A DNA stretch of 64,000 nucleotides, taken from NCBI RefSeq assembly GCF_006345805.1, contig NC_043009.1, forward strand, positions 55,304,001-55,368,000. The letters run 5' to 3'. Made by a program: the position numbers and the translations under genes. Source of the DNA: Octopus sinensis (lineage: Eukaryota). This document shows positions 2,105-61,880 of this stretch, piece after piece. How positions within the stretch are numbered: the first letter of the stretch is position 1; the number at the start of each line of letters is the position of its first letter. Below the pieces are notes generated by a model that worked only from the letters and a program-made list of their open reading frames with translations, did no database searches and was not told the DNA's origin.

Positions 2105-2325
2105 GAGGTAACTCTCTTTGCAGCATCATTAAATGCAAAGGAGCCATCATCCATGCAGACACATTTCTCTCCAATGACATCACGATTCTCTCTCACACAC
2201 TGTCTTGCAATATGAAACACTTCAAGTCTCTGGTCCTTGTGACATAGAACATTGGCAATTTTTTTTCTTATTTGTGTCCCCTCTGGTTAAGTAAACCTTT
2301 CTCCTAGCTTCTCTTCTGACGATCT
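2105..2325 (-). mobile_element. RTE LINE ORF fragment (EN-RT linker)
   Basis: KKIANVLCHKDQRLEVFHIARQCVRENRDVIGEKCVCMDDGSFAFND; next to an RTE 3'UTR piece at about 2340-2500. Confidence 0.6.
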
Positions 2326-4346: not shown

Positions 4347-4584
4347 TAATAAAATATTAGGGAATAAATCCAAACTTACAGGGAAAAATCAGATATAGGA
4401 TTAAATCCAATTTTATAGTATAAATATATTATATCATATTATATTATATTAAACTAGAGATAAACCCACTATTAGGCAAATCAAACAATGAAAAACATAA
4501 GCCAATACATAAAATTAATATAACTTATATTATTTTAAATATATATCAAAAGTATTAAAAGTTTAATAAAAGATAAAGAGTAAA

Positions 4585-4677
4585 ACACTACGATCGTTTC
4601 ATGGCTGTACAATTCGAATAACAATAATTTAAATTCAATTAATAATTCGAGTTATGGTTACAGTCAATCTTCAGGTT
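4585..4677 (-). ncRNA. Hammerhead motif (intact core, weak stem I)
   Basis: CTGAAGA-TTGACTGTA...TACAGCCAT-GAAA-C(GATC)G-TA. Confidence 0.65.
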
Positions 4678-4932
4678 AATTGAAATATCTAAAAAATAAA
4701 CAGAAATATTTAAACAATATTATTAATTGAATTTAAATTTTTGATATATATTTAAAATAATATAAATTATATTAATTTTATGTATTGATTTGCCTAATAG
4801 TGGTTTTATCTCTAATTTGATATAATATATATATATATATAAGAATGCATGCTCTCACTGCATCTCCTCATTTTTGTTTGCCTTGCTCCTTCTCATAGAG
4901 ATAAAAACACAAGTATACGTACATGCATACAT

Positions 4933-4965
<33 letters not shown>

Positions 4966-5214
4966 CACACACACACACACACACGCACACACAAACACAC
5001 ACGCATGCAAGTATAAGCACACACATATTGCTGAAGTCATAAGAATTTCATAAACTTTCAAGAGGATGTCAGCTGACCCTTTTTTTGGGGAATATCTCGA
5101 AGCACACACATAAAGCTATAGATAACAGCATGCAATGTAAATATTTGCAGCTTTCTATGCGTACTTTAAGATACCTCCAAAATATATATATGCGCATGTA
5201 GACATATGTATATA

Positions 5215-5354
<140 letters not shown>

Positions 5355-5541
5355 TCACACATTCTTACATACTCACACACACACACACACACACATGTAT
5401 TTATTGGTTTCATTATTAGATTGTGACTTTCCTGGGGCATTGCCTTCACAAGTGCAATCAAGTATATCAGACCCCTCCTACCTCCAGTACTTGACTAGAA
5501 GTAGATACTGAGGACCGAGGCAAAGTCAACCAAGGCAATGT

Positions 5542-5601
<60 letters not shown>

Positions 5602-5739
5602 CACACACACACACACATACACATATTTGCATATATTCATTAAGGAAGCAGATTTTTTGCTCTGCAAAATTAAACATAGTAATAATGAGTAAGACAATAA
5701 TGACAATAAAGGAAAAAAAACTTATGAATATTTCTCCAA

Positions 5740-5843
5740 TTATAATGATGATAATAATAATAATAATAATAATAATGATGATAATAATAATAATAATAAT
5801 AATAATGATGATAATAATAATAATAATAATAATAATGATGATG

Positions 5844-5914
<71 letters not shown>

Positions 5915-5969
5915 GTAATAATGATAATAATAATAATAATAATAATAATATAATAATAATAATAATAAG

Positions 5970-6013
<44 letters not shown>

Positions 6014-6057
6014 GTAATAATAATAATAGTAATAGTAATAATGATATAATAATAATA

Positions 6058-6090
<33 letters not shown>

Positions 6091-6154
6091 ATAATAATAA
6101 TAATAATAATATAATAATGATAATATAATAATAATAATAATAATAATGATGATG

Positions 6155-6185
<31 letters not shown>

Positions 6186-6312
6186 TAATAATAATAATAA
6201 TAATAATAATGATAATAATAATAATTAATAATAATAATAATAATGATAATAATAATAATAATAATAATAGTAATAATAATAATAGTAATAATAATAATAA
6301 TAATAGTAATAA
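5740..6312. repeat. Long (TAA)n microsatellite with ATG/GTA interruptions
   Basis: Direct reading; source of the poly-I/L/N ORFs. Confidence 0.95.
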
Positions 6313-6498
6313 TACAAAGATCACCAACATATTTTTTACTGTAGACTATTTGTAATTTTGTGTATAAGTGTTGCTTTCCCTGTAATTAGGGTTAAAAGGG
6401 ATGGAGGAGGAGGAGGAGGAGGAGAAGGCAACATTGATGGTTGTAACTGCAAAAGCAGTGACATCAATGATGATGATGATGATGATGATGAAGAAGAA

Positions 6499-6533
<35 letters not shown>

Positions 6534-7520
6534 AGAAGAAGAAGAAGAAGAAGAAGAAGAAGAAGAAGAAGAAGAAGAAGAAGAAGAAGAAGAAGAAGAA
6601 GCCTTCTAAGCAACCCCTCCCACATGCACACACATGTGGAGGGGAAGGGCATTCTCCCCTATCATTCATTGCACCCCAAAATCTTCTTTCCAGTTTGTTT
6701 CAATAATTTGTTTCCAAACCATTAAACACCCCCCCACTTTCTCCTCTTCTTCACCCCTGCCGCAAACCCACCCACCCCCGCCCACACCAAACACCCCCAC
6801 ACCCCAAATGTCATGCTCTCCTTCCTCCACCCACCTCTAATGGTATTGCTTTTGTTTCAGCATGGTTTTCTTCAGCTGACATTTCCCCTTCACGCAACCA
6901 CCACTCACACTCACACTCCTTTTCCTACCACCACCACCACCACCACCATCATCAAGAATAACAACTTTTGTAATGGCTGCCATCTCACCCACTCTGACTT
7001 CCTATCTTCTGTAGAATGTTGAAAAGATGTCAAATAAACCGACTCCCTCCACACATACACATTTCTTCCTCCTTGTATCTTAACCTCGGGTCTTCATCAG
7101 ACAAAGTTGTTTGAAATGGGTGCAGACATAGCTGTGTGGTTAAGGAGTTCCTTTGCGACCATGCAGTTCTGAGTTCAATCTCACTCAGCTACATCTTGAA
7201 TAAAGTGTCTCTCCTACCAACTGGAAATTTCTTTGTAACCATTTGGAAGCAACAGAATAGCTTGATGTGATATCTTCATATGATAACCTTTGCTTTGAAT
7301 AAAAATTGGAACTGGTAACTTCCGTTATTCCTTACCATGGATTATCATTAAATTCACATTTAAATTGCTGATGGACCTTACCTATAACTGATTCGATCAT
7401 AAAACTACATGATACATACCCATCTTATTTTGATCCTTCTCTCATTTTTGACAAACTGGAATATACTTGTATCCTCAAACGGGGATATTCCTTCATTTTT
7501 ACATCTCTCTCCCTTCTCCC

Positions 7521-7597
7521 TCTCTGATGATGGCTTATAGAATCTTTACGCAATATCATGATCCACATGCTTGGCTCTTCTAGAAACAGCAGTAAGA
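7521..7597 (+). ncRNA. Degenerate hammerhead motif
   Basis: TCT-CTGATGA...TCTA-GAAA-C(AGCA)G-TA-AGA; stem II poorly paired. Confidence 0.45.
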
Positions 7598-8637
7598 CAC
7601 CCTATGTTTATATTCTTTATCTAAATTAAATGTCTTTTTCAAGTGATGCCAAATATTTTCTTTTTTTTTAATTTTTACTTTAATCTGTAAAATATTTTCT
7701 CTTCTGATTCATAGTATGCCTGAAATTTCTCAGAGTTCTTTGACAAACAAAGGCAAAGAGAATACTTGGATCAATCATGAGTTGTAGGACTCATAAGGCT
7801 GGCGTTTAACCCAGTTTCCACAGCAAATAAATGACTGAGAATATAACACTCTTCCTCTGAATGGAACACCAGTCTACTTCAGTGTTAACTTCTTAGCTAT
7901 TGTTGGAGACTATCTACAGTCGAGTGGACTAGGTCAATGTTACATGAAGTGTTTTACTCAAGAACAAAAGCACCAAGCAATTTGTGAATTGAAACCACAA
8001 TCTTACAATTGAGAGTACAACACCCAAACCACTAGGTTTGGACAAAAAATATTATCTTCAGATGCATCTGCCACATATATTCTTCAAGCTACACCAACTT
8101 GCAAGAGACATAGGGGTAGCCCAAGTATGAGAGGGTTGGATAATATTTATAGTCACAGTTAGTTGTACATGGGAACCCATCAGAAAAGTGTAATGGCAGT
8201 TACCTCTGATGGGAGGATGTGCCTGAAGCCTCTTGCACCATGACCTTCCCAGGGTGGAGAAAATAGAGAGATGGATGGATGCATCAGGACTAAGGGTTTG
8301 CAGTTTCTTACATATTTGTTGGAATGATCCGGCACATCTTCTCAAGCAACTGTTAAAACAGCATATTCTAACTTAATAAATTTATGATGTAAATTCTTTG
8401 TATCTTGTTTACATTCTTTTACTTGTTTCAGTCATTTGACTGTGGTCATGCTGGAGCAATGCCTTAAAGGGTTTTTTTAGTCAAAGAAATTAACCCCAGG
8501 ACTTATTCTTTATAAGCCTAGTACTTATTCTATCAGTCTCTTTTGTGGAACCACTAATTTATGGGGACATAAACACACCAACATTGGTTGACAATGGTGG
8601 TGGGGAAAAACATAGACACAAAGGCACACTCTCATAA

Positions 8638-8692
<55 letters not shown>

Positions 8693-9424
8693 GCTTCTTT
8701 CAGTTTCTGTCTACCAAATCCACTCACAAGGTTGCAGTAGAAGACACTTGCCCAAGGTTCCACACAGTGGGACTGAACCCAGAACCATGTCATTGGGAAG
8801 CAAGTTTCTTACTATACAGCCACACCTGCACCTGGACATTCTGGATTCTCACCCTCACAATACTACTCCCTGCCTCCCAGTTGAGAAGGTGTTCTCTTGC
8901 AAGATACTTGGTGACCCTATCAGTGCTGTAAAACGCACTAACAGGGCCACCAGATAAAAAGCACTATTGATGGTGTCGCATAAAAAGCACCCGGTACACA
9001 CTGTAAAGTAGTTGGCATTAGGAAAGGAATCCAGCTGTAGAAACCATACCAAAATAGATAATGGAACCTGGTGTGGCTCCTGGCCTTGCCAGCTCCTGTC
9101 AAAGCATCCAACCCATGCCAGCATTAAATGATTATGATGGTGGTAATGACACAGCTTTTTCTTTTAATTAATTTTGAAATTATGAATTTAGTAAAATAAT
9201 TTTGTCATTGTGAAACTGGTATTTGGAATATAAATTACATGGAATTTTGAGGGAAAGTTTAGAGTTAGATAACTTTAATAGTACAAGTTTATATCATAGA
9301 AACAGGAGCAGTCGTAAGCAGGTTGGCATCAAAAGGGTTAATATTGACAAACTTGAACCTGTAAAATTGTTTTACAGATTTTGACATTTAGAAATTTTGA
9401 CAGAACACTATTCCCTAAATTTGT

Positions 9425-9520
9425 ATCATCATCAGCATCATCATCATCATCATCATCACCACCATCACCATCACCATCATCATCATCATCATCATCATCA
9501 CCACCACCACCACCACCACC

Positions 9521-9554
<34 letters not shown>

Positions 9555-9616
9555 TCATCATCACCATCATCACCACCATCACCATCACCATCATCATCAT
9601 CATCACCACCACCACC

Positions 9617-9658
<42 letters not shown>
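9425..9658. repeat. (CAT/CAC)n microsatellite
   Basis: Direct reading; source of the poly-H ORF. Confidence 0.95.
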
Positions 9659-9660
<2 letters not shown>

Positions 9661-10677
9661 CATTAATACACCAAGCAAAATGCTTAGTGGCATTTCATCT
9701 GTCTATACGTTCTGAGTTCAGATTCCGCCAGGGTCAACTTTACCTTTAATCCTTTCAGGGTCAGTAAATTAAGCACCAGTTGGTTGTGTACTAGCATCGA
9801 TTTAATCGACTGGCTTCTTCCCCAAACTTTCAGGCCTTGTGCCTATAGCAGGAAGGATTATTATGATTATTAACATCAACATGCTGGGCAAAATGCTTAG
9901 CAGTATTTCGTCTGTCTTTACATTATGAATTCAGATTCTGCTGAGGTCAACTTCGCCTTTCATCATTTTGGGTTCGATGAAATAAGTACCAGTTGTGCAC
10001 TGGGGCCAATGTAATCGATTTGCCCCCTCCACTAAAATTTCAGGCCTTCTACCTATAGTAGAAAGGATTATTATTATGATTATTATTATCATTTTTCTTT
10101 TAATTTGCATGTTCGATGCAGTCACTTGCTAGGACATACTCAGTTCCCTAGGGTATCATCATCATCATCATCATTATTATTTTGCTTTATAAATTGTAAT
10201 CTGCAGTGTGTGAGACATAAAATCCTAAAGAAATAGTGGTTTTTCTCAAACTAAAAAAAACTTCCTGCTAGAGTATTATACCATACACACACATGTACAC
10301 ACACCCTACAACTTGGTATTCCCAGTTGAGGTGGGATAGACCAAGCTGTCATTATGCCAATTATTTTCAATATCCTTTCCAATTTCATATTAGTAATGAG
10401 TAATTTTTTTCTAATTTTGGTTCAAGGCAAGCAATTTTAAGATGAGGGTAAATAAGTCACATTGACCCCATGATCAACTGGTCCTTTTTTTTTAATTAAA
10501 CCCTGAAGGGATGCAAGGCAGATATGAACTCAGAACAAAGAGATAGAAGAAATAATTCTATTGGCAAAGGACATTACACTGTGTAACATGATTTTTGTCC
10601 TTGGGTAGCAGCTGTATGTATGTCTGTATGTGAATGAATGAATGTATGTATGTATGTATGTATGTATGTATGTATGT

Positions 10678-23188: not shown

Positions 23189-23736
23189 AAAGCTTGTTTT
23201 AGAAAAAGGTAGTCCTTCAAAAGTTTTTTCATAAATATACATGCTATTTTTGGCTAAGTAAAAATTAATTAAAAAAAGTAATGAATTAATGAAAAAGCAA
23301 TTCAAAAATTCTCATAAATGAATCAGTGTGAAAGTAAAGTTTGAAAATGAGTAAAAATTATGGAGAAATGCCAATAATCCTCCCTGTATATAAGTTGTGA
23401 CATAGGAATTAGAAAAGAAAGGAAAATACATACAGCCCCACCACCTCTCTCTCTCTCTCTCTCTCTCTTTTCACACATTGAAAGCGTTTTTTTTTCGTAA
23501 TGCATTTGTGCGTTAGTTAAAGACAAACTAGCATCAAAGTCTTGCACTTTTGTTGTAAAACTAGAATAAGAAGCATAACAGAAAAGTTTTTCCAGATTTC
23601 TGTAAAACTGAGCTACAATCTCAAACTGAGACAACTATGCTAAACTGGGACAATCCCAGACAAACCAGAATGTATAGCAACCCTCTATATGTGTGTGTGT
23701 GTGCATTTACATGCAGTTAAATATATGTCCAGTCAC

Positions 23737-23798
23737 AGAGTGACCAATAGTTTCTCATCTATAAAGTGCTTAGCCTAAAAGATGACTCATCAGACTCT
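23737..23798 (-). ncRNA. Type I hammerhead motif in PLE pLTR (left arm of inverted repeat)
   Basis: AGAGT-CTGATGA-GTCATCT...AGATGA-GAAAC-TATTG-GTC-ACTCT; C11.1 appears lost. Confidence 0.75.
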
Positions 23799-24013
23799 AA
23801 TGGTGGAGGGTATATAACCCCTTTTCAAACTGGAGGAAGAAAACCCTTACGGTCAGTAATTTGTAAACAAAAGAGTAATATATGATGCAAGCTTTGCATA
23901 GCAGAGTGGGCAAGGATCCTTAAAGACTTGTTGGACCTGAAATGTCTCTTAAATTACTGACCATAACAGTTTTCTACCTCCAGTTTGAAGAAAGGTTATG
24001 TGCCCTCTGCCAT

Positions 24014-24077
24014 TAGATTCTGATGAGTTGTCTATAAAGCTAAGCACTTTATGGATGTGAAACCATTGGTCACTCTA
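24014..24077 (+). ncRNA. Type I hammerhead motif in PLE pLTR (right arm of inverted repeat)
   Basis: TAGATT-CTGATGA-GTTGTCTATAAAG...CTTTATGGATGT-GAAAC-CATTG-GTC-ACTCTA. Confidence 0.7.
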
Positions 24078-24097
24078 TGGCCAGACATATATTTAAC

Positions 24098-24552
24098 TTA
24101 AAGTGTGGACATACAGAAAAAACCTCATTCCTGCAATTCACATAGTTGTTGGAAGCTCTCAAATTCTTTAAGAGATAGAATTTTTCAAGAGAACATATTT
24201 GAACATCTTTTGGATCCATTTGGGCCTGGTTTTAGAAAGGATTTTTCCATTTGATGCCATGGTTGCTCCCTTTGTCTTTAAGCTTCTAGATTAAAGCCAA
24301 AAGGATAGCAGACTATCTCTTATCACAGTGCATAAAATTCAAAAGATAGTGGTTATATCTGGATTTAAATTTTCCATTCATGTCTCCAGTAAAACGTTCG
24401 ATTTCTGTTTGACCATTGCCATAGTTTGCTGACACGTGTGCTTCATAAATACCGGAGGATATATCACGGTTCTGTCCTAGAAGACATTTAGATTTGTCTC
24501 TGCATGTGCATTCAGAGAAGGCTTGAGTCGTCTGTTGCTTATTGATATACAA
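24098..24552 (-). mobile_element. Penelope-like element GIY-YIG endonuclease remnant
   Basis: CTCRDKSKC..GIYEAHV..FKSRYNHY, then KLKDKGSNHGIKWKIL..NGSKRC..CSLEKFYL..CRNE across frameshifts; typical PLE endonuclease C-terminus. Confidence 0.8.
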
Positions 24553-25444
24553 CTTAACATTGGTGGGGGGAAGAAGAGGTAAAGAGGTAATTTTACTCGT
24601 GTGACTTGAAGATTTTACTGCGACGAACGGTCACTTGAAACTTTGAATAAAAATTTGTAAAGACCTTTTAGTTTTAATAAACTGTGTATCATTCCACCTT
24701 TAGTATTTGCATACTATTTTCCCACTTTTTATGCGCTTATCTGTGAACACACACACATACAATATGCTCATATATACTTTGTAGCAAGTAAGTGTATAGT
24801 CAAACCACAAACATATATATACATACGTTCATATACACATACATACACACAGAAAACCGTAGAAGAATTGTCATGCTATGTAACAGTGAAATATGGGCAA
24901 TAAATTCAGATTGGATATTAAATAGCAAGAAAGGCTGTGGGAGGCCGAACACATGAAGCATAGGACATCAAAGGTATATGACGGAAAATGTTAATGAATC
25001 GAAGTATATGGAAGAACAATGCTGTAAGTATAGTCAGTGATAAAAGTTTTGGTTAAAGAAATAGCCAGAGCGGTTCCGAAACATTGGACACCACAGGTGA
25101 AATAATCTATCGAAGGAAACCTCTTCGTGATCGCTCAACTTGCTGAAAATAGCAGAGAAATCTTCCCTATCTCTTAAAATAAAAAGGGAAGGAAAAGCAC
25201 TAATGTAATCCCAGAGACATTGTTTCGAAACTTCGGGGTGTTTGATCGATTCAAGTCTGAACAAAAAGGTCAACCAGCAGATTCTCTCGTCCTAAGCCAG
25301 CAAGGGGTATTTTTTTTTTCTCATAATAGAATGAACTTCACAACCACCTTTCCGAAGTTTTATATCTACGTAAAAAAAAAAAAAATCAATCTATCCTTTC
25401 ATCTCCTTTTTTTATTCTCTTGTCTGTCTCTCAAACTTTCTATC

Positions 25445-28742: not shown

Positions 28743-29465
28743 AACATATATACGACGGACTTCTTTCAGTTTCCGTCTACCAAATCCACTCACTAGGCTT
28801 TGGTTGGCCCGAGGCTATAGTAGAAGACATTTGCCCAAGGTGCCACACAGTGGGATTGAACCCGGAACCATGTGGTTGGTAAGCAAACTACGTACTACAC
28901 AGCCACTCCTATACCTATATATGAGGAAATATGCCTTTGCCTATTGAAATACGTGAGGGAAATTCCTCTACATGGTATACATATAATTTTGTAAGTAAAA
29001 TATTTTACTTATAATGAGAATGAAGATTAGAAAGTGTCCAAATGAATATAGAAAGTTCATGAGAAGATTAATGCTACATACAAAATTTGCATGCTTTTGG
29101 TTGTATGTCCTTTCACTAACATTCATATCACTACAATCCTTATGGGCCCCAACACTAAATGCTTGCTAGTGTTATATGATTTGTAAATCATGATTTCTTG
29201 AGTTCAGTTTCACTGTGCAGCAAGGTGTAGCTGTGGCTGTATGGCGAAGAAGCTTGCTTCTGAGCTGTGTGGTCTCAGGTTCAGTCCCACTGCACGGCAC
29301 ATTGGGCAAATGTCTTCAACTGTAACCTCTAGCCAACCAAAACCTTGTGAGTGGATATCGTGTATCTACTGTTTTTACCTCGCTCAGAGGTTTATTATTG
29401 CTTGTTTCCACTTTTCTGAGATCAGTAACTTTTCGTCACTGGAAATAGTATATATACATACATAT

Positions 29466-31406
29466 ATCATCATCATCATCATCATCATCGTTTAGCGTCC
29501 GTTTTCCATGCTAGCATGGGTTGGACGGTTCTACTGGGGTCTGTGAAGCCAGAAGGCTTCATCAGGCCCAGTCAAATCTGGCAGTGTTTCTACGGCTGGA
29601 TGCCCTTCCTAACGCCAACCACTCCGTGAGTGTAGTGGGTGCTTTTTACGTGCCACCCGCACTGGTGCCAGACAGAGCTGGCAAACGGCCACGAACGGAT
29701 GGTGCTTTTTATGTGCCACCGGCACGAGGGCCAGGCGAGGCTGGCAACGGACACGAAACGGGGCGGTGCTGGCAACGGTCGCGAAACGGAAAGTTCTCTT
29801 ACATGCCACCGGCACTGGTAACACATCTGCAATTTCCATTGATCGATTTCCATTGATCGATTTCGATTCTGATCGTCACTTGCCTCAACGGGTCTTCACA
29901 AGCAGAGTTTTGACATGCCACCGGCACTGGTAGCACATCCACAATTTCCATTGATCGATTTCGATTCTGATCCTCACTTGCCTCATCACGTCTTCACAAG
30001 TAGAGTTTTGTGTCCCAAGAAGGGAAGGTATGCATACGTAGGCTGGCTCCATCTCATGTAGAAGGCCACGGGTTATGGACTCACTTGTCCTGCCGGGTCT
30101 TCTCGCGCACAGCACACTTCCAGAGGTCTCGGTCTCTAGTCATTTCCTCAGTGAGACCTAAAGTTCGAAGGTCGTGCTTCACCACCTCGTCCCAGGTTTT
30201 CCTGGGTCTGCCTCTTCCACAGGTTCCCTCAACCGCTAGGGTGTGGCACTTTTTCATACAACTATCTTCATCCATTCTCGCCACATGACCATACCAGCGC
30301 AAACGTCTCTCTTGCACACCACAACTGATGCTTCTTAGGTCCAGCTTTTCTCTCAAGGTACTTACACTCTGCCGAGTATGAGTACTGACATTACACATCC
30401 ATCGGAGCATACTGGCTTCGTTTCTAGCGAGCTTACGCATATCCTCAGCAGTCACGGCCCATGTTTCACTGCCATGTAGCATGGCTGTTCGTACACACGC
30501 ATCATACAGTCTGCCTTTCACTCTGTGCGAGAGGCCTTTTGTCACCAGCAGAGGTAAGAGCTCTCTGAACTTTGCCCAAGCTATTCTTACTCTAGCAGTT
30601 ACACTTTCAGCACACCCGCCCCCGCTGCTGACTTGGTCACCTAGGTAACGGAAACTATCAACTATTTCTAGTTTTTCTCCCTGGAAAGTGACGGAAGTTG
30701 GTCTCAGAGCATTTTCAGTGTTATTGTTCCTGAGCATCTGCCACATACAAAAACCATCTTCCTAGTTAGCCTTCCTTTGACATTGCTGCATCTCTTATGT
30801 GTCCATAGCTTACACTTGGTGCATCTTATAGAGTTTCTACCTACACCTTTTCTACAGATCGAGCAGGGCCATCTACCTGAAGGTGTTTGTGATTTGTCTA
30901 CCTTCCTACTGATTACGACTTTGGTTTTAGCTAGATTGACTCTGAGGCCCTTCGATTCTAATCCTTGTTTCCACACCTGAAACTTCTCCTCCAGTTCTGA
31001 TAGCGACTCAGCAATTAGAGCAAGGTCATCAGCATAGAGGAGCTCCCAAGGGCATCCTATCTTGAATTCCTCCGTTATTGCCTGGAGGACTATGATAAAT
31101 AGGAGGGGGCTGAGTACTGAGCCTTGGTGGACTCCTACCTCTACCCGGAATTCTTCACTGTACACATTTCCAACCCTCACCCTACTAGCGGCGTCCCTGT
31201 ACATGGCCCGCACAGCTCTCACTAACCATTCATCTATCCCTAGTTTCCTCATTGCCCACCAGATAAGGGATCGGGGGACCCTGTCGAAGGCTTTCTCCAT
31301 GTCAACAAAAGCCAGGTACAGGGGCTTATCTTTGGCTAGGTATTTCTCCTGCAGCTGCCTTACCAGGAATATAGCATCAGTAGTACTTTTCCCTGGCACA
31401 AACCCA
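29466..31406 (-). mobile_element. 5'-truncated RTE-clade LINE (RT with YADD, PHD finger, one frameshift, 3'UTR, (GAT)n tail)
   Basis: ORFs 30704-31399 and 30081-30746: FVDMEKAFDRV, GVHQGSVLSPLLF, LLYADD, FRYLGD, RRLRWYGHV, GRPRKTW; frameshift near 30715; internal duplication in the 3'UTR. Confidence 0.95.
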
Positions 31407-31470
31407 ATATTTATATATTTATATATTTATTTATATTGAGAACCACTTCCCATTACCAACCGGTGGTTGT

Positions 31471-31515
31471 CACATGCTGATGATGGATCAATATTCAGAA
31501 ACCCGGGTCCGTGTG
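31471..31515 (+). ncRNA. Minimal type I hammerhead ribozyme, intact core
   Basis: CACATG-CTGATGA-TGGAT(caat)ATTCA-GAAA-C(CCGG)G-TC-CGTGTG: 6-bp stem I, 5-bp stem II, palindromic stem III loop, GUC site at 31507-31509. Confidence 0.85.
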
Positions 31516-31946
31516 TATCACGTCAGGCTGCAGATGGGAATGATTACTTCCCTTTGCAAATACTGATAGGGCACAGACAGTGTGTCAATAGCCAGCTGGA
31601 GGAGATGTCTTCCTGGGGCTACAAGCTACAGTAGCATCAACCCTTAAGGGTTAGCCACATTTAGGTGGCAAATATACTTAACAATGTTGTGCAGCTACTG
31701 TTTATATCTCGCTCGGAGATTTATTATTGATATATACATATTTACACATATTTGTTGGATGGCAGTTGACTGCTCACGAGTTCCTCAGCCCTTTGATGAG
31801 TCTTGTTTTTCATCCTGCAGGGTGTCCGACAATCACCCTCCTCACCAAGCAAGCCTGGTGGGGTTGCCAGTTTAGTCACCAATGACCCAACCATGCAACA
31901 GGTTGTACTGGATTACATGTTACCAGTAGCACTCAACAGTGACCTG

Positions 31947-32544
31947 ACACACATACACACATACATACATACACACATACATAAATACATACATACACAC
32001 ATATATACATACATACACATACGCATACATACATACACACACATACATACATACACACACATACATACATACGTACACACACACATACATACACACACGC
32101 ATACATACATACACACACGCATACATACATACGCACACGCATACATACGTACACACATACATACACACACACATACATACATACATACACACACACACCA
32201 CACACACACACATACATACATACATACAACACACACATACATACACATACATACATACACACACGCATACATACATACACACACGCATACATACATACGC
32301 ACACGCATACATACGTACACACATACATACACACACACATACATACATACATACATACATACACACACGCATACATACATACACACACGCATACATACAT
32401 ACACACACGCATACATACATACACACACATACATACACACACATACATACACACACGAATACATACATACATACATACACACACATACATACACACACAC
32501 ATACATACACATACACACATACACACATACACACATATATACAT

Positions 32545-53384: not shown

Positions 53385-53925
53385 AAGTTACTCATTGATC
53401 TTGATATCTCAAAGGCTTTTGACAGAGTGTGACATGTTGGCCTGACCCATTAGTTCAGAGGCTATGGTATGTCTAGGTCTTTCCTTAACATCATCAAATC
53501 ATTTCTTTCAAATTGCAGAATCAATGTGGTTCTTGATGGCCAGAAGACAAATTCATATACTATCAATGCTAAAGTGTCTCAAAATTCTTTACTTGGTCCT
53601 ACTATTTTTCTCTTTTCCATCAATGACATTCCAGATCATATTTCTAAACTTGCCCTCTATGCCAATGATACCAATCTAATCATGTCATAACAAAACTAGT
53701 AGCCTTGATTGGTATGTTTTCTTTGAGAATAATCTTTGTGTCGTCATGGAAATGGTTAGTGACTGACTGGCAAGACAAAGCTTTTGTCAGTTAGTCATCA
53801 CAGGCATCTACTCCTTTCCTTCATTGCTTATGGGCAGAGTTGGTCTTCCAGAAAGCTATGGTATCAGACTTCTTGGTTTGACTTTGACCAGGGGTCTCTT
53901 TCGGAATAAATATGTCCAGTCAAAA
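53385..53925 (+). mobile_element. Decayed CR1/L2/Jockey-group LINE RT fragment in a CARS2 intron
   Basis: LDISKAFDRV*H...VSQNSLLGPTIFLFSIND...LYANDT (decayed PQGSxLGP and YADD). Confidence 0.8.
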
Positions 53926-58331: not shown

Positions 58332-60439
58332 CTAAAGGAAAGATAAAAATAAATCACCTTTTGAGTAATAAAATCTTGAAGAAACTCAAATAAACAAAAA
58401 TCATAACAAAATTCATAATCATCATCACCAATATTGTCTTTAACAAAATAACATTCTGACTGGCATCATGTTCACCAAAATATCCACTGCTGTTACTTAT
58501 CATCAGCATCAATAGGGACAGACATGGCTGTGTTGTTAAGGAGCTCACTTTGTAATCACATGGTTTCAGGTTCAGTCCCACTGTAATGACCCTGGGCAAG
58601 TGTCTTCTTATAGCCCAGGGCTGACCAATGCCTTGTGAGTGAATTTGGTAAATAGAAACTGTGTGGAAGCCTATCATGCATGTATGTGTGTGAGTATGTG
58701 TGTCTTTGTGCTCCAGTAATTGCTTGACAACTGGAGTTGGCTTGTTAATGCCCCCACAACTTAGCAGCTCAGCAAGAAAGACTAATAGAATAAGTACCAA
58801 ACTTAAAAATTAAGTACAAGGGTTGATTAGCCTGAATAAACCCTTTAAGGTGGTGCCCCAGCATGGCTACCGTCTAATGACTAAAACAAGTAAAAAATAA
58901 AATAAAAGACCAACACTGACATTATCCTAAAATCATTATCATCAACACTTCAACATCACCATTGCTCACTAGATACATTAAAGAAATTAGTACATCTCAT
59001 GTCTCTTTCTTTCTTAACAACTCCACTCATAAATTTAAATTTCTAAATGTTTTGTCTGGAGGTTTTTTTCCTTTTGCTTTTGTACACCTTGTTTCTCATG
59101 ACTGTATGGTTGTTAGGCTTTTTCTGTTGGCGCAATTGTTTTTAATACCCGATAATTATTCTTACAAAAACAAAAATACAACCATACAGTCAGACTGGAA
59201 CTGGATTTCACCCTTCATGTTTGGCTCCTTTTCCTGAGGAGTTGTGCACCTGAGTACAGTATACAGTAAGTTCATTGTATTATATTAGCATTTAAACCAA
59301 CTACATCTTGCCCAAATAGTCTACCTGTTTGTGTTCAAACTGGCCAGAACCAACCTCTCACATATACCTTCTACAATGTCATTCTAAAAATAAACAAACA
59401 CATCATTGAACTCTTGAAGCTACAAGATAATGCATGATAAATTCAAAACAATGTGACTATATAAGCTCTGCATTTGGGAGAGTAGTCTGAATGTTGAAGG
59501 CTTAAACCTGACAGGAAAACACCACACAATCAACAGACTAATGGCTGCCTCTACACACCACCGAACAGTACGTCAACTTTGTCTACAAGATCAACAGTCC
59601 AGCCTGACCACAAAGCCTCTTACACATCCTTGTTGTAACCTGTTATATTAATTTATTTCATGTATGGCAATCATTGTATTTTATAACAGAGAATAAATCA
59701 TCGCTTACCAGTTCATTCTCATCTCATGTCGTATATCATTTTCACATGCTACACAGAAAAAATCAGAAGGCAATGATTTGTATTCATGTTCAAAATTGCA
59801 GCAATTTTATTACAGGTTTCCAAAAACTCTGAACAAATGTGTGTGACTGAAAAACTTATGATGTGTGCAAAACATCATAATGTAGACATACAGTCTGGTA
59901 GGAATAACATTGTATGACATGAATAATTTCAGTTTCACTTACTACTATTTACCAAGACTCTACACTGAAGCTGATAACAATTCCATAGTATAAAACTGGA
60001 CAAATGTCATAGTGCAGATACTAATCTTGCTGGAGAAGCTAATTTCAGCAAACAGGATATAATAAGACTCATAACTGCTTAAAAGAAACAAATGTCAAGT
60101 GAAGAACTGGACACAAGGATTCAGAGTAGCTAAAGAAAACTTAGCCCAGTAGTCATAACGACTAGGAAAGTGAATAAATAACTTTCCATGTTCTAGATGA
60201 GGCTGAGAGAATGAGGAGCTTGAAAGTACATCGTTAACAGTTCGACATCTTCACAGCAACTAACTCAACTTACTGTTTTTAGGTGTGTTTTCAACTTGGG
60301 CGTAAGATGTTGTTTGAATGTGTGCAACGTCAGCTTAACTGGTCAGCATCTGTCCTAAACAACTAACTTGCGCTCCAGTAAAAAAAAAAATTTATCAGGT
60401 CTTACTACAACAGGAATGCCACATTTGTGTATTTCTTAC

Positions 60440-60573
60440 CTGTGTGAAGCCAATAATTGCACCATTGCTTGCATCCATGATATGTCTGGGACTGAGCAAG
60501 CTCATTTTCATGGTGTGGGAAAATAAGGTCTTCTCCTCCAGAGTGCAAATCAAAGTTGGAACCAAAGATTTTG
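60440..60573 (-). CDS. CARS2: CysRS exon ([44 protein letters not shown])
   Basis: DxHxGGxDLxFPHHENExAQS zinc-ligand motif; AG/GTAAGA boundaries; 134 nt. Confidence 0.97.
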
Positions 60574-61132
60574 CTGGAAGTAAACAATGCAATAAATAGG
60601 ATTTTTTTACATAAAGAGCACGAACATTCAACAGCTGTCATATTGTTTAGCATGGGGGTTAGGGTGTTGCACTCACAACTGCAAGATAATAGTTTTAATT
60701 TGTGAACCAAGTGGTATGTTGTGTTCTTGGGCAAAACACTTACTTTTACATTGTTCCAGTCTACTCAGCTGTGTTTCCTAGCAAGATAATATTTCTCCTT
60801 GGCCAGAAATGTTTTCTCATTATGACAGTGACACTCATTTACAACTATTACTCAATGTGAAGACAAAGAGACACAAACATACATGTACAAACACGATGGG
60901 CTTCTTTCAGTCTTTCTACTAATTCTCCTTACAAAGCTTTCGTCAGCTTGGTGTATAGTAGCTAGCAAGGTATCATGCAGTGGGACTGAACCTGAAACTA
61001 TGTGGTTGGCAAGCAAACTTCTTCATCACACAGCCATACCTGCACCAACTTTCTCTTAATATACTACAGAACTAATAATTATGATAATAATATGAAAAAA
61101 TCCATACACGCACACATCAAAAACTGACTTAC

Positions 61133-61259
61133 CTTGCCATGGCAGAACATTCAATATGCCATCCTGGTCGGCCCTTACCCCAAGGAGACTCCCAGGAAGG
61201 CCCCTCTTTCATGGCTTTCCATAGAGCAAAATCCAACGAGCTACGTTTGCCTTCATGAG
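61133..61259 (-). CDS. CARS2: CysRS exon ([41 protein letters not shown])
   Basis: Hallmark DFALWK...[12 protein letters not shown] motif; AG/GTAAGT boundaries; 127 nt, phase-consistent. Confidence 0.97.
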
Positions 61260-61880
61260 CTGGAAAGAAATTACAGAAAAGGAAAGGTCTTATTTCAAGA
61301 TGTTTTTTGTGTAGATTTACCAATTTATAATATATACATATGTGTGCATGTGTATTTGTTCCCTCTACTGCTTGACAACTGGTGTTGGTTTGTTTATGTC
61401 CCTGTAACTTAGTAGTTTGACAATAGAGACTGATAGAATCAGTGCCTGACATAAATATAAGTTCAGCAAAAGAGAGTGATAGAATAAGTACCAGGCTTAA
61501 TGTAAGGACTGGAATTGATTTGTTTGACCAAACCCTTCAAGGCCCCAGCATGGCCTCAGTCCTATGACTGAAGCAAGTAAATGATAAAAGTTATCAATCC
61601 CTGCTTTGACATGGGCTCTTGACATTATACACAGAAACCCTGGATTGCTTAGACATCAAATCCTCTTTTTAAGCCTAACTACTCTACTCCAACAGAGTGT
61701 AGAAGCATGAAATTTGGAACTGTTTTAGTTGGAAGAATTTCAAGAAATAAGTAGTTTGAGAGTGGTACATTTGATTTGTTTTTTACTCCTTTAGTCTTTT
61801 TACAAGCATAGGTATTCATTTTATCAACCTTCAACTTAACAAGTTGACCAGAACACTAAAATACTTTCCAAAATACTAAC

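What the first reader, a model, noticed from the sequence alone, without database searches (positions are those of the whole stretch)
31440..31730. Intact minimal hammerhead next to the 5' truncation of an RTE LINE
Seen: a complete HHR at 31471-31515 with all core nucleotides, a GUC site, a CCGG loop and U-A at the base of stem II. A second decayed motif (CTGATAG-GGCACA..TGTGTC) follows at about 31563-31590. The segment end (about 31689-31729) recurs at about 29360-29400 on the other side of the RTE. Inference: a tandem pLTR-like array interrupted by the RTE at a TA tract. This is the best candidate for an active ribozyme in the window.
Basis: partly seen in the sequence, partly recalled or inferred. 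Interest (0 to 1): 0.72.

Follow-up and report, generated by a model that had tools for sequence, protein, structure and literature searches.

The report
Worn hammerhead in abundant Penelope-type repeat
The self-cutting RNA motif (hammerhead ribozyme) is really there and belongs to a very abundant repeat that is likely the tail piece of a Penelope-like jumping gene, a known kind of element, but this lone copy carries weakening mutations and is predicted to cut poorly or not at all.

Summary
The type I hammerhead at 31471-31515 (+) is real: full core, 6-bp helix I, palindromic helix III that would pair between two copies. Chance is unlikely (0 and 3 of 300 shuffles). It sits in a high-copy repeat: 4,518-9,821 contigs laid in each of three DNA runs. 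Most relatives carry other letters at three or four of this copy's helix II positions; its stem is predicted at +0.1 kcal/mol against -4.7 to -5.6 with the majority letters. G10.1-C11.1 is not met. The 'second decayed motif' is a family hairpin, not a hammerhead. The 29360-29449 piece is the same family and runs further 3', so two pieces flank the LINE; a true tandem array is not shown. The LINE lies on the opposite strand, so the adjacency is likely incidental. RNA reads show no pile-up at the cut site. It is not the window's only candidate: paired hammerheads sit beside a Penelope-type endonuclease remnant at 23.7-24.6 kb. Verdict: new member of a known kind (Penelope pLTR or non-LTR retrozyme), likely inert here.

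The parts
31471..31515 (+). Type I hammerhead motif: helix I 6 bp, core CUGAUGA (31477-83) and GAAA (31498-501), helix II 31484-31497, palindrome 31501-31508, predicted cut after C31509
   Evidence: sequence; descriptor scans and shuffles; pair list
31463..31521 (+). Predicted extension of helix I beyond an internal loop (31463-67 with 31517-21, 5 bp); G31466 is A in about 15-32% of DNA depth, which keeps the pair
   Evidence: predicted only
31438..31729 (+). Main copy (about 292 bp) of the high-copy hammerhead-bearing repeat; non-coding, several small hairpins (fold z=-2.6, 1 of 200 shuffles as stable); left edge not fixed because the lay skipped 31370-31441
31570..31586 (+). Hairpin GGCACA/TGTGTC, the 'second motif': a family hairpin (31578 is A in 74-79% of DNA depth; a subfamily in RNA reads keeps the stem with another loop and lacks the upstream CTGATAG), not a hammerhead
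   Evidence: (tables 3, 7)
29360..29449 (+). Second, 3'-terminal piece of the same family: overlaps the main copy by 41 bp (35 identical) and adds about 49 bp, the first 30 of which resemble what relatives carry beyond 31729
   Evidence: (loose ends)
29450..29466 (.). TA-rich tract between the left piece and the LINE tail
29467..31407 (-). 5'-truncated, frameshifted LINE (RT, PHD-like finger, C-terminal domain, 3' UTR, (GAT)n tail); relatives have AP endonuclease + RT; the RTE-clade label is recalled from its motifs, no call names the clade
31408..31437 (.). TA-rich tract between the LINE 5' break and the hammerhead repeat
29223..29356 (+). SINE-like repeat cut short and joined to the left piece (11 of 12 window copies that carry the motif continue with their usual 3' end; this one does not)
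31730..31949 (.). Separate high-copy repeat ending in microsatellite, abutting the main copy; no match to the LINE's protein relatives

Best explanation
This is a real type I hammerhead motif in a worn copy of a very abundant repeat that is likely the 3' terminal (pseudo-LTR-type) part of a Penelope-like retroelement or of a non-coding derivative of one; in the family the ribozyme would cut after C31509 as a double hammerhead, while this solitary copy is predicted to be weak or inert. Mechanism: two copies in one RNA, or two RNAs, pair their 8-nt palindromes into a full helix III and cleave (inferred from anatomy and from published type I hammerheads). The element would be copied by a Penelope reverse transcriptase and endonuclease from its 3' end into TA-rich DNA, leaving mostly 5'-truncated copies and partial tandems (inferred). 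Two pieces ended up in one TA tract here and an unrelated LINE lies between them in the opposite orientation, most likely inserted later (inferred). SHOWN: the motif, its non-chance status, the high copy number in runs of three organisms, the shared family of the two pieces, and the minority letters in helix II. NOT SHOWN: cleavage, the autonomous partner, the order of insertion.
For: High copy: 8,203, 9,821 and 4,518 contigs laid on 31370-31955 in runs of organisms A, B and D, this count including the neighbouring repeat; 44-90 contigs per run carry the other letter at each of the four helix II positions. No core, helix I or palindrome position is among the 40 difference rows shown, whereas helix II changes are of pair-keeping type (A31487-U31494 here; G at 31487 in 85-95% and C at 31494 in 68-80% of depth). 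Two strands of the window copy co-fold into the intermolecular helix III plus helix I (palindrome duplex -14.9; exact double hammerhead -35.9 vs 2 x -13.5 kcal/mol for monomers). Depth is biased to the 3' side: the hammerhead bins are 6-26 times below 31690-31729 in X1 and X2, 2-9 times in X8, as expected for 5'-truncated copies. 69, 81 and 45 contigs have loose ends at 31729, as expected for a frequent 3' end with an optional tail; 5' truncation, partial tandems, 30-40 bp tails and (TA)n targets are described for PLEs (PMC8557442 passages). This genome has hammerhead-bearing PLEs: another family lies at 23.7-24.6 kb. For weakness of this copy: helix II +0.1 vs -4.7/-5.6 kcal/mol; no second hammerhead of the family in 64 kb; no pile-up of RNA ends (table 6).
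Against: No PLE coding sequence was linked to this family: nothing upstream of 31438 could be read, and the 24-kb element shows no DNA similarity to it. The hammerhead's shape is the canonical type that PMC7229834 ties to tandem retrozymes, not the min-HHR typical of PLEs. Summed contig depth is not a copy number (the tool's own warning), and the drop near the left edge is partly an edge and divergence effect. 123 difference rows were hidden, so conservation of the core is shown only as 'not among the strongest differences'. C>T and G>A decay of paired CpG can mimic compensatory change. Folding penalties omit tertiary contacts. The RNA run is of organism D, only about 6% of it was read, and its reads over the hammerhead differ from this copy at 5 or more places, so this locus itself was not observed.
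Confidence: 0.55

Rival explanations
1. The family is a non-LTR retrozyme: a unit of about 340 bp in head-to-tail arrays, whose transcripts self-cleave to monomers that circularise; this locus is a broken two-unit array split by the LINE (closest to the first reader's view).
For: Canonical type I shape. Unit of about 292 + 49 bp, within the 150-450 bp range and near the mussel (350-390) and axolotl (330-350) units (PMC7229834). Head-to-tail joint from 31729 back to 31467 in one contig each of X1 and X2. Folding z=-2.6. The two pieces would lie about 50 bp apart without the LINE and are the only two in 64 kb.
Against: Strong 3' bias of depth instead of even coverage. Only one contig per run shows the joint, and none in X8. 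About 47 bp of TA-rich DNA separates the two pieces. No strand-specific, end-defined RNA in X23 (969 mates in 12.9 million records, both directions, no end pile-up), although a poly(A)-type library would miss circles.
Confidence: 0.3
2. Whatever the family, this particular copy is still an active ribozyme (as monomer or trans-dimer), because the core is perfect and U-A closes helix II.
For: All core letters are present. Every helix II position can still pair. Natural hammerheads tolerate weak helix II and even U10.1-U11.1 (PMC3088659 section 8; axolotl HHR_Amex2). A Hydra PLE motif with U-A at the base of helix II is listed in PMC4209133 supplement file 2.
Against: Helix II is +0.1 kcal/mol. 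The hammerhead fold lies 5.3 (51 nt), 8.2 (141 nt) and 10.0 (292 nt) kcal/mol above the free ensemble. It lacks G10.1-C11.1, called the most conserved pair besides 15.1-16.1. No cis partner. Axolotl monomers cleave only 6-22% in an hour, and 8 of 9 predicted Xenopus dimers did not cleave (preprint 10.64898/2026.07.22.740005).
Confidence: 0.15
3. The hammerhead is functionally tied to the LINE: it made the LINE's 5' end, or the two moved as one composite flanked by an 11-bp duplication (29450 and 31730).
For: The hammerhead starts about 64 bp from the LINE's 5' break; ATATATACATA stands at both 29450 and 31730.
Against: Opposite strands: cleavage of a + strand RNA cannot define the 5' end of a minus-strand LINE RNA. 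The 11-mer occurs 30 times in the window. 4 of 8 LINE 3' ends found by motif abut TA-rich tracts (by eye), so a shared target explains the adjacency.
Confidence: 0.04
4. The motif is a chance match inside an ordinary repeat.
For: Rfam's hammerhead models do not score it. The bare core pattern occurs by chance in large collections: 69 metagenome loci, none related beyond the pattern.
Against: 0 and 3 of 300 shuffles, before counting the perfect palindrome and the helix I extension. Relatives carry a stronger helix II at the same register.
Confidence: 0.02

Closest known systems
Canonical metazoan type I hammerheads in non-LTR retrozymes (Cervera and de la Pena 2020, PMC7229834; parts 2-3 of 6 and passages read, supplement unreadable)
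   Same: 6-bp helix I, 4-bp helix II, 1-2-bp helix III with a palindromic loop (dimer type); non-coding unit of about 340 bp; GC below 50%; high copy number in an invertebrate-type genome.
   Different: No G10.1-C11.1: U-A here, C10.1 in most relatives with an unread partner. Tandem arrays and circular RNA are not shown; coverage is biased to the 3' side.
Hammerheads in the pLTRs of Penelope-like elements (Cervera and de la Pena 2014, PMC4209133; parts 1-2 of 4 and supplement file 2 parts 1-2 read; Craig et al. 2021, PMC8557442, passages)
   Same: Mostly solo, dispersed, variable copies; dimer-type palindrome; partial tandem; TA-rich insertion context; variable 3' tail.
   Different: Not the min-HHR shape (helix I is longer, helix II shorter, helix III present, flanks not U/AU-rich). 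No RT or GIY-YIG sequence was linked to this family.
Retrozyme monomers derived from PLE pLTRs (Li, Clavereau, Pollet, bioRxiv 10.64898/2026.07.22.740005; parts 1-3 of 5 read)
   Same: Dispersed monomers and short multimers of a hammerhead-bearing unit in a genome that also holds PLEs; most tested predicted elements did not cleave.
   Different: That work covers vertebrates, three insects and a coral; homology of this family to a pLTR was not testable here.

Membership tests
Type I hammerhead ribozyme | Core C3-U4-G5-A6-N7-G8-A9, G12-A13-A14-A15.1, U16.1-H17 | tested here: met
Type I hammerhead ribozyme | Helices I and II closed next to the core, helix I open-ended | tested here: met
   6 bp and 5 bp, but helix II is predicted at only +0.1 kcal/mol
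Type I hammerhead ribozyme | Conserved G10.1-C11.1 pair | tested here: not met
   U31484-A31497 here; C at 31484 in 67-90% of DNA depth; the family letter at 31497 was not displayed. Exceptions are published, so this lowers but does not exclude activity.
Type I hammerhead ribozyme | Score against Rfam hammerhead models | tested here: not met
   no hammerhead match at E<=10
Type I hammerhead ribozyme | Self-cleavage at H17 | not testable with these tools
   RNA reads of organism D show no end pile-up (table 6), but these are other copies and an unsuitable library
Dimer-type (double) hammerhead | Palindromic helix III and loop 3 able to pair between copies | tested here: met
   8-nt palindrome 31501-31508; formed in the co-fold minimum-energy structure
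PLE min-HHR (PMC4209133) | Absent or tiny helix III, long helix II (7-8 bp), short helix I, extra nucleotide after A9, G10.1-C11.1, U/AU-rich flanks | tested here: not met
   sequence; the extra-nucleotide reading needs a second extra base before GAAA
Penelope-like element pLTR | Lies 3' of, or flanks, a PLE RT + GIY-YIG ORF | tested here: inconclusive
   none adjacent; sequence upstream in other copies could not be read (skipped 31370-31441; no genome held)
Penelope-like element pLTR | 5'-truncated dispersed copies, partial tandems, 3' tail, microsatellite targets | tested here: inconclusive
   3'-biased depth, loose ends at 31729, two pieces in TA tracts; depth is not a copy number
Non-LTR retrozyme | Head-to-tail repeats of 150-450 bp, each with a hammerhead | tested here: inconclusive
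   one hammerhead only in the window; one head-to-tail joint contig in 2 of 3 DNA runs among the 15 joints shown, 56 hidden
Non-LTR retrozyme | No coding capacity | tested here: met
   no stop-free frame of 100 aa or more within 31440-31729
Non-LTR retrozyme | Abundant unit-length linear and circular RNA | tested here: inconclusive
   low reads in both directions without defined ends in one RNA run, about 6% read

The most novel reading that the evidence does not exclude
An undescribed, very abundant hammerhead retroelement family of octopus-type genomes, a first cephalopod retrozyme or pLTR ribozyme, whose active form has a canonical type I shape but replaces the near-invariant G10.1-C11.1 pair with C10.1 opposite G or A, cleaves as a dimer and yields circular RNAs of about 340 nt.
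Probability: 0.2. Interest if true: 0.45.

Novelty: new member of a known kind. Interest (0 to 1): 0.2.

Why it matters
Modestly. Hammerheads in Penelope-like elements and retrozymes are described across invertebrates, molluscs included, so one worn copy adds a lineage rather than a principle. Three library searches and term look-ups in PMC7229834, PMC13282606 and PMC8967140 showed no report of a cephalopod hammerhead; unread supplements and subscription papers may hold one. The feature worth a specialist's look is the family-wide departure from G10.1-C11.1, which thousands of natural copies could test. The window also shows two unrelated hammerhead-bearing repeat families about 7.5 kb apart.

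Tried and rejected
Own-genome search: no genome is held, so copies came only from one lay of four runs. Rfam: no hammerhead or HDV-like match. Pattern scans for family copies: 69 metagenome loci, all unrelated beyond the pattern; 0 hits in viral and prokaryote collections for two family patterns and one SINE pattern. Idea that 31750-31950 is the LINE's own 5' end, which would put the hammerhead inside the LINE: no match from 122 proteins, and its depth is much lower at the 31750 side than further towards the microsatellite end; rejected. The 11-bp target-site duplication: the word occurs 30 times in the window; rejected. Second hammerhead at 31563: fails on core, GAAA and helix I; rejected. 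Supplement searches for the family sequence or an Octopus hammerhead: no family match in PMC8557442 file 1 and no Octopus entry in PMC4209133 file 2 (file 1 not searched). The PMC7229834 supplement was unreadable, the PMC13282606 supplement was listed but not read, and bioRxiv supplements are closed. Lunse et al. 2017 on PLE hammerhead variants is recalled only (not held under the id tried). PMC9901934 passages gave no data on the 10.1-11.1 pair. A word-seeded protein search with the first 24-kb frame found nothing; the profile-free full search did. Pfam was run on 58 of the 82 frames of 100 aa or more; 24 mostly microsatellite or low-complexity frames were left out.

Full report
Observation. 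The sequence at 31471-31515 (+) reads as a complete type I hammerhead. The pair list is: helix I 31471-76/31510-15 (6 bp), core CUGAUGA 31477-83, helix II 31484-88/31493-97, GAAA 31498-501, C31502-G31507 around CCGG, and GUC with C17 at 31509. Positions 31501-31508 form a perfect palindrome, and a further 5-bp helix (31463-67/31517-21) can extend helix I past an internal loop. A strict descriptor finds only this site on both strands of the window; 0 of 300 block-wise dinucleotide shuffles gave a hit with helix I >=5 and helix II >=4. A relaxed descriptor gave 3 of 300 at I>=6, II>=5 and 14 of 300 at I>=5, II>=4. Rfam does not recognise it.

Setting. The window is microsatellite-rich animal DNA with SINE-like repeats and LINE 3' ends. 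I recall these repeats as typical of Octopus genomes; no call names the organism, and no genome is held. Left to right the locus is: a SINE-like copy cut at 29356 (11 of 12 window copies continue otherwise); a family piece 29360-29449; a TA tract; a minus-strand LINE from its (GAT)n tail at 29467 to a 5' break near 31407 (RVT_1 E=3.1e-25; relatives carry AP endonuclease and RT; 109 of 120 hits start at 31414); a TA tract; the hammerhead repeat 31438-31729; a separate high-copy repeat to 31949; and a long (CA)-rich microsatellite.

The family. Runs of four coded organisms hold the stretch, at best 0.60 of its words. Laying three DNA runs and one RNA run on 31370-31955 at 80% likeness placed 8,203, 9,821 and 4,518 contigs and 969 read mates (the counts include the neighbouring repeat). 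In helix II the window is often the minority form. In X1, X2 and X8 the other letter holds this share of depth: 31484 T>C 90, 79, 67%; 31487 A>G 95, 92, 85%; 31494 T>C 69, 68, 80%; 31495 T>C 44, 35, 82%; 44-90 contigs per run carry it. No core, helix I or palindrome position is among the 40 rows shown, but 123 rows were hidden. The letter at 31497 is not displayed. It is not C at 10% or more in X1, since all four A>C places of that run are listed elsewhere; G (a C-G pair, both bases in CpG) or A (a C.A mismatch) remain the likely options. Either way G10.1-C11.1 is not met.

Organisation. Contigs that leave the window sequence at 31729 (69, 81, 45) continue with letters matching 29401-29430 at 23, 19 and 23 of 30 (by eye). 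The left piece has the majority letter at the position matching 31715. So both pieces are one family, and the unit is at least about 340 bp. One contig each in X1 and X2 joins 31729 back to 31467 (15 joints shown, 56 hidden). Depth over the hammerhead is 6-26 times below that at 31690-31729 in X1 and X2, 2-9 times in X8, and far below the peak near 31600. The tool warns that this is no copy number, and the skipped zone 31370-31441 lowers the left edge. The pattern fits 5'-truncated, 3'-anchored copies with a variable tail better than even tandem arrays, but does not exclude arrays. There is no usable target-site duplication: the shared 11-mer occurs 30 times in the window.

The second motif. 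CTGATAG lacks G8/A9, no GAAA occurs in 31551-31620, and no helix I partner exceeds 3 bp. Relatives have A at 31578 (74-79%), and 245 RNA reads of one subfamily keep the stem with a different loop and without CTGATAG (table 7). It is a conserved hairpin, not a decayed hammerhead.

Likely working. Canonical metazoan type I hammerheads have a 6-bp helix I, a 4-bp helix II and a 1-2-bp helix III with a palindromic loop, and cleave as dimers (PMC4209133). Two strands of this copy co-fold into the intermolecular helix III and helix I, and the exact double hammerhead (-35.9 kcal/mol) beats two folded monomers (2 x -13.5), although the minimum-energy dimer (-43.3) mispairs helix II. This copy's helix II is +0.1 kcal/mol against -4.7 or -5.6 with the majority letters. 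Its hammerhead fold lies 5.3, 8.2 and 10.0 kcal/mol above the free ensemble in 51, 141 and 292 nt of context; these figures omit tertiary contacts. No partner of the family lies in the window. Published monomers of this type cleave poorly (axolotl 6-22% in one hour, PMC7229834), and 8 of 9 predicted Xenopus dimers did not cleave (preprint). Against this reading, natural hammerheads tolerate weak or mismatched helix II bases (PMC3088659 section 8). The RNA run (organism D, about 6% read) shows reads in both directions, continuous depth across 31509 and no pile-up of ends; its reads differ from this copy at five or more places and the library may miss circles, so it neither shows nor excludes cleavage. 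The LINE is on the other strand, so the ribozyme cannot have made its 5' end.

Not the only candidate. A relaxed scan found a second full-core hammerhead at 23793 (minus strand), with a related copy at 24020 (+) in a 73%-identical inverted repeat. It lies next to a stop-broken frame at 24070-24630 (minus) that hits 325 proteins at E<=0.001. The long hits are 650-820-residue proteins with reverse-transcriptase-like motifs, a CxC linker and a weak GIY-YIG match (3 of 10 scanned, E 0.004-0.033, below Pfam's cut-off); reading them as PLE proteins rests on recalled motifs. Its folding penalty is equal or smaller (4.9-5.1 vs 5.3-7.6 kcal/mol). It shares no detectable DNA similarity with the finding's family, but indicates that hammerhead-bearing PLEs exist in this genome.

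Comparison and verdict. It works like the dimer-type hammerheads of PLE pLTRs and non-LTR retrozymes, which a 2026 preprint argues are one lineage. Membership in either is not fully tested: no PLE frame is linked, and arrays and circular RNA are not shown. It fails the min-HHR shape and the G10.1-C11.1 feature. I found no report of a cephalopod hammerhead in three searches or in the passages read; supplements I could not see may hold one. New member of a known kind; this copy is likely inert; interest 0.2.

Noticed in passing
window 23715-24630: Remnant of a likely Penelope-like element: stop-broken endonuclease-type frame on the minus strand (24070-24630; 325 hits) followed by a 73%-identical inverted repeat (23715-24098) with a hammerhead in each arm (cores at 23793 minus and 24020 plus). 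Both have a G after A9, a long helix II without C11.1, and a 7-nt near-palindromic helix III region. A different family from the finding.
   Followed up: partly
window 60408-61536 (minus): Two frames match the cysteinyl-tRNA synthetase catalytic domain (Pfam tRNA-synt_1e, E=6.9e-18 and 3.1e-20, consecutive profile positions 158-200 and 200-245): likely two exons of a CysRS gene.
   Followed up: no
window 30704-30900 (minus): The LINE carries a PHD-like finger just after its RT domain (Pfam PHD E=4.7e-5, just under the cut-off); most of the listed relatives share it.
   Followed up: partly
window 31730-31949: A second, unnamed high-copy repeat that ends in TA/CA microsatellite in many copies (loose ends at 31949 in 68 and 81 contigs); no match to the LINE proteins and no Rfam family.
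   Followed up: partly
window 29801-30010: Direct duplication of about 100 bp (80% identical, with an extra short internal repeat) in the LINE 3' UTR.
   Followed up: no
window about 2113-2265 (minus) and 53400-53696 (plus): Further short remnants of LINE coding sequence related to the same proteins.
   Followed up: no
window 31680-31691: A small hairpin where the window has A-U and relatives G-C (31683, 31688); both bases lie in CpG, an example of CpG decay mimicking a compensatory change.
   Followed up: partly
L036:1499-1534 and L057:1500-1535: Two metagenome contigs share a hammerhead-like string with the same palindromic helix III but a different helix II; not the same family by BLAST (E=0.25).
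   Followed up: no
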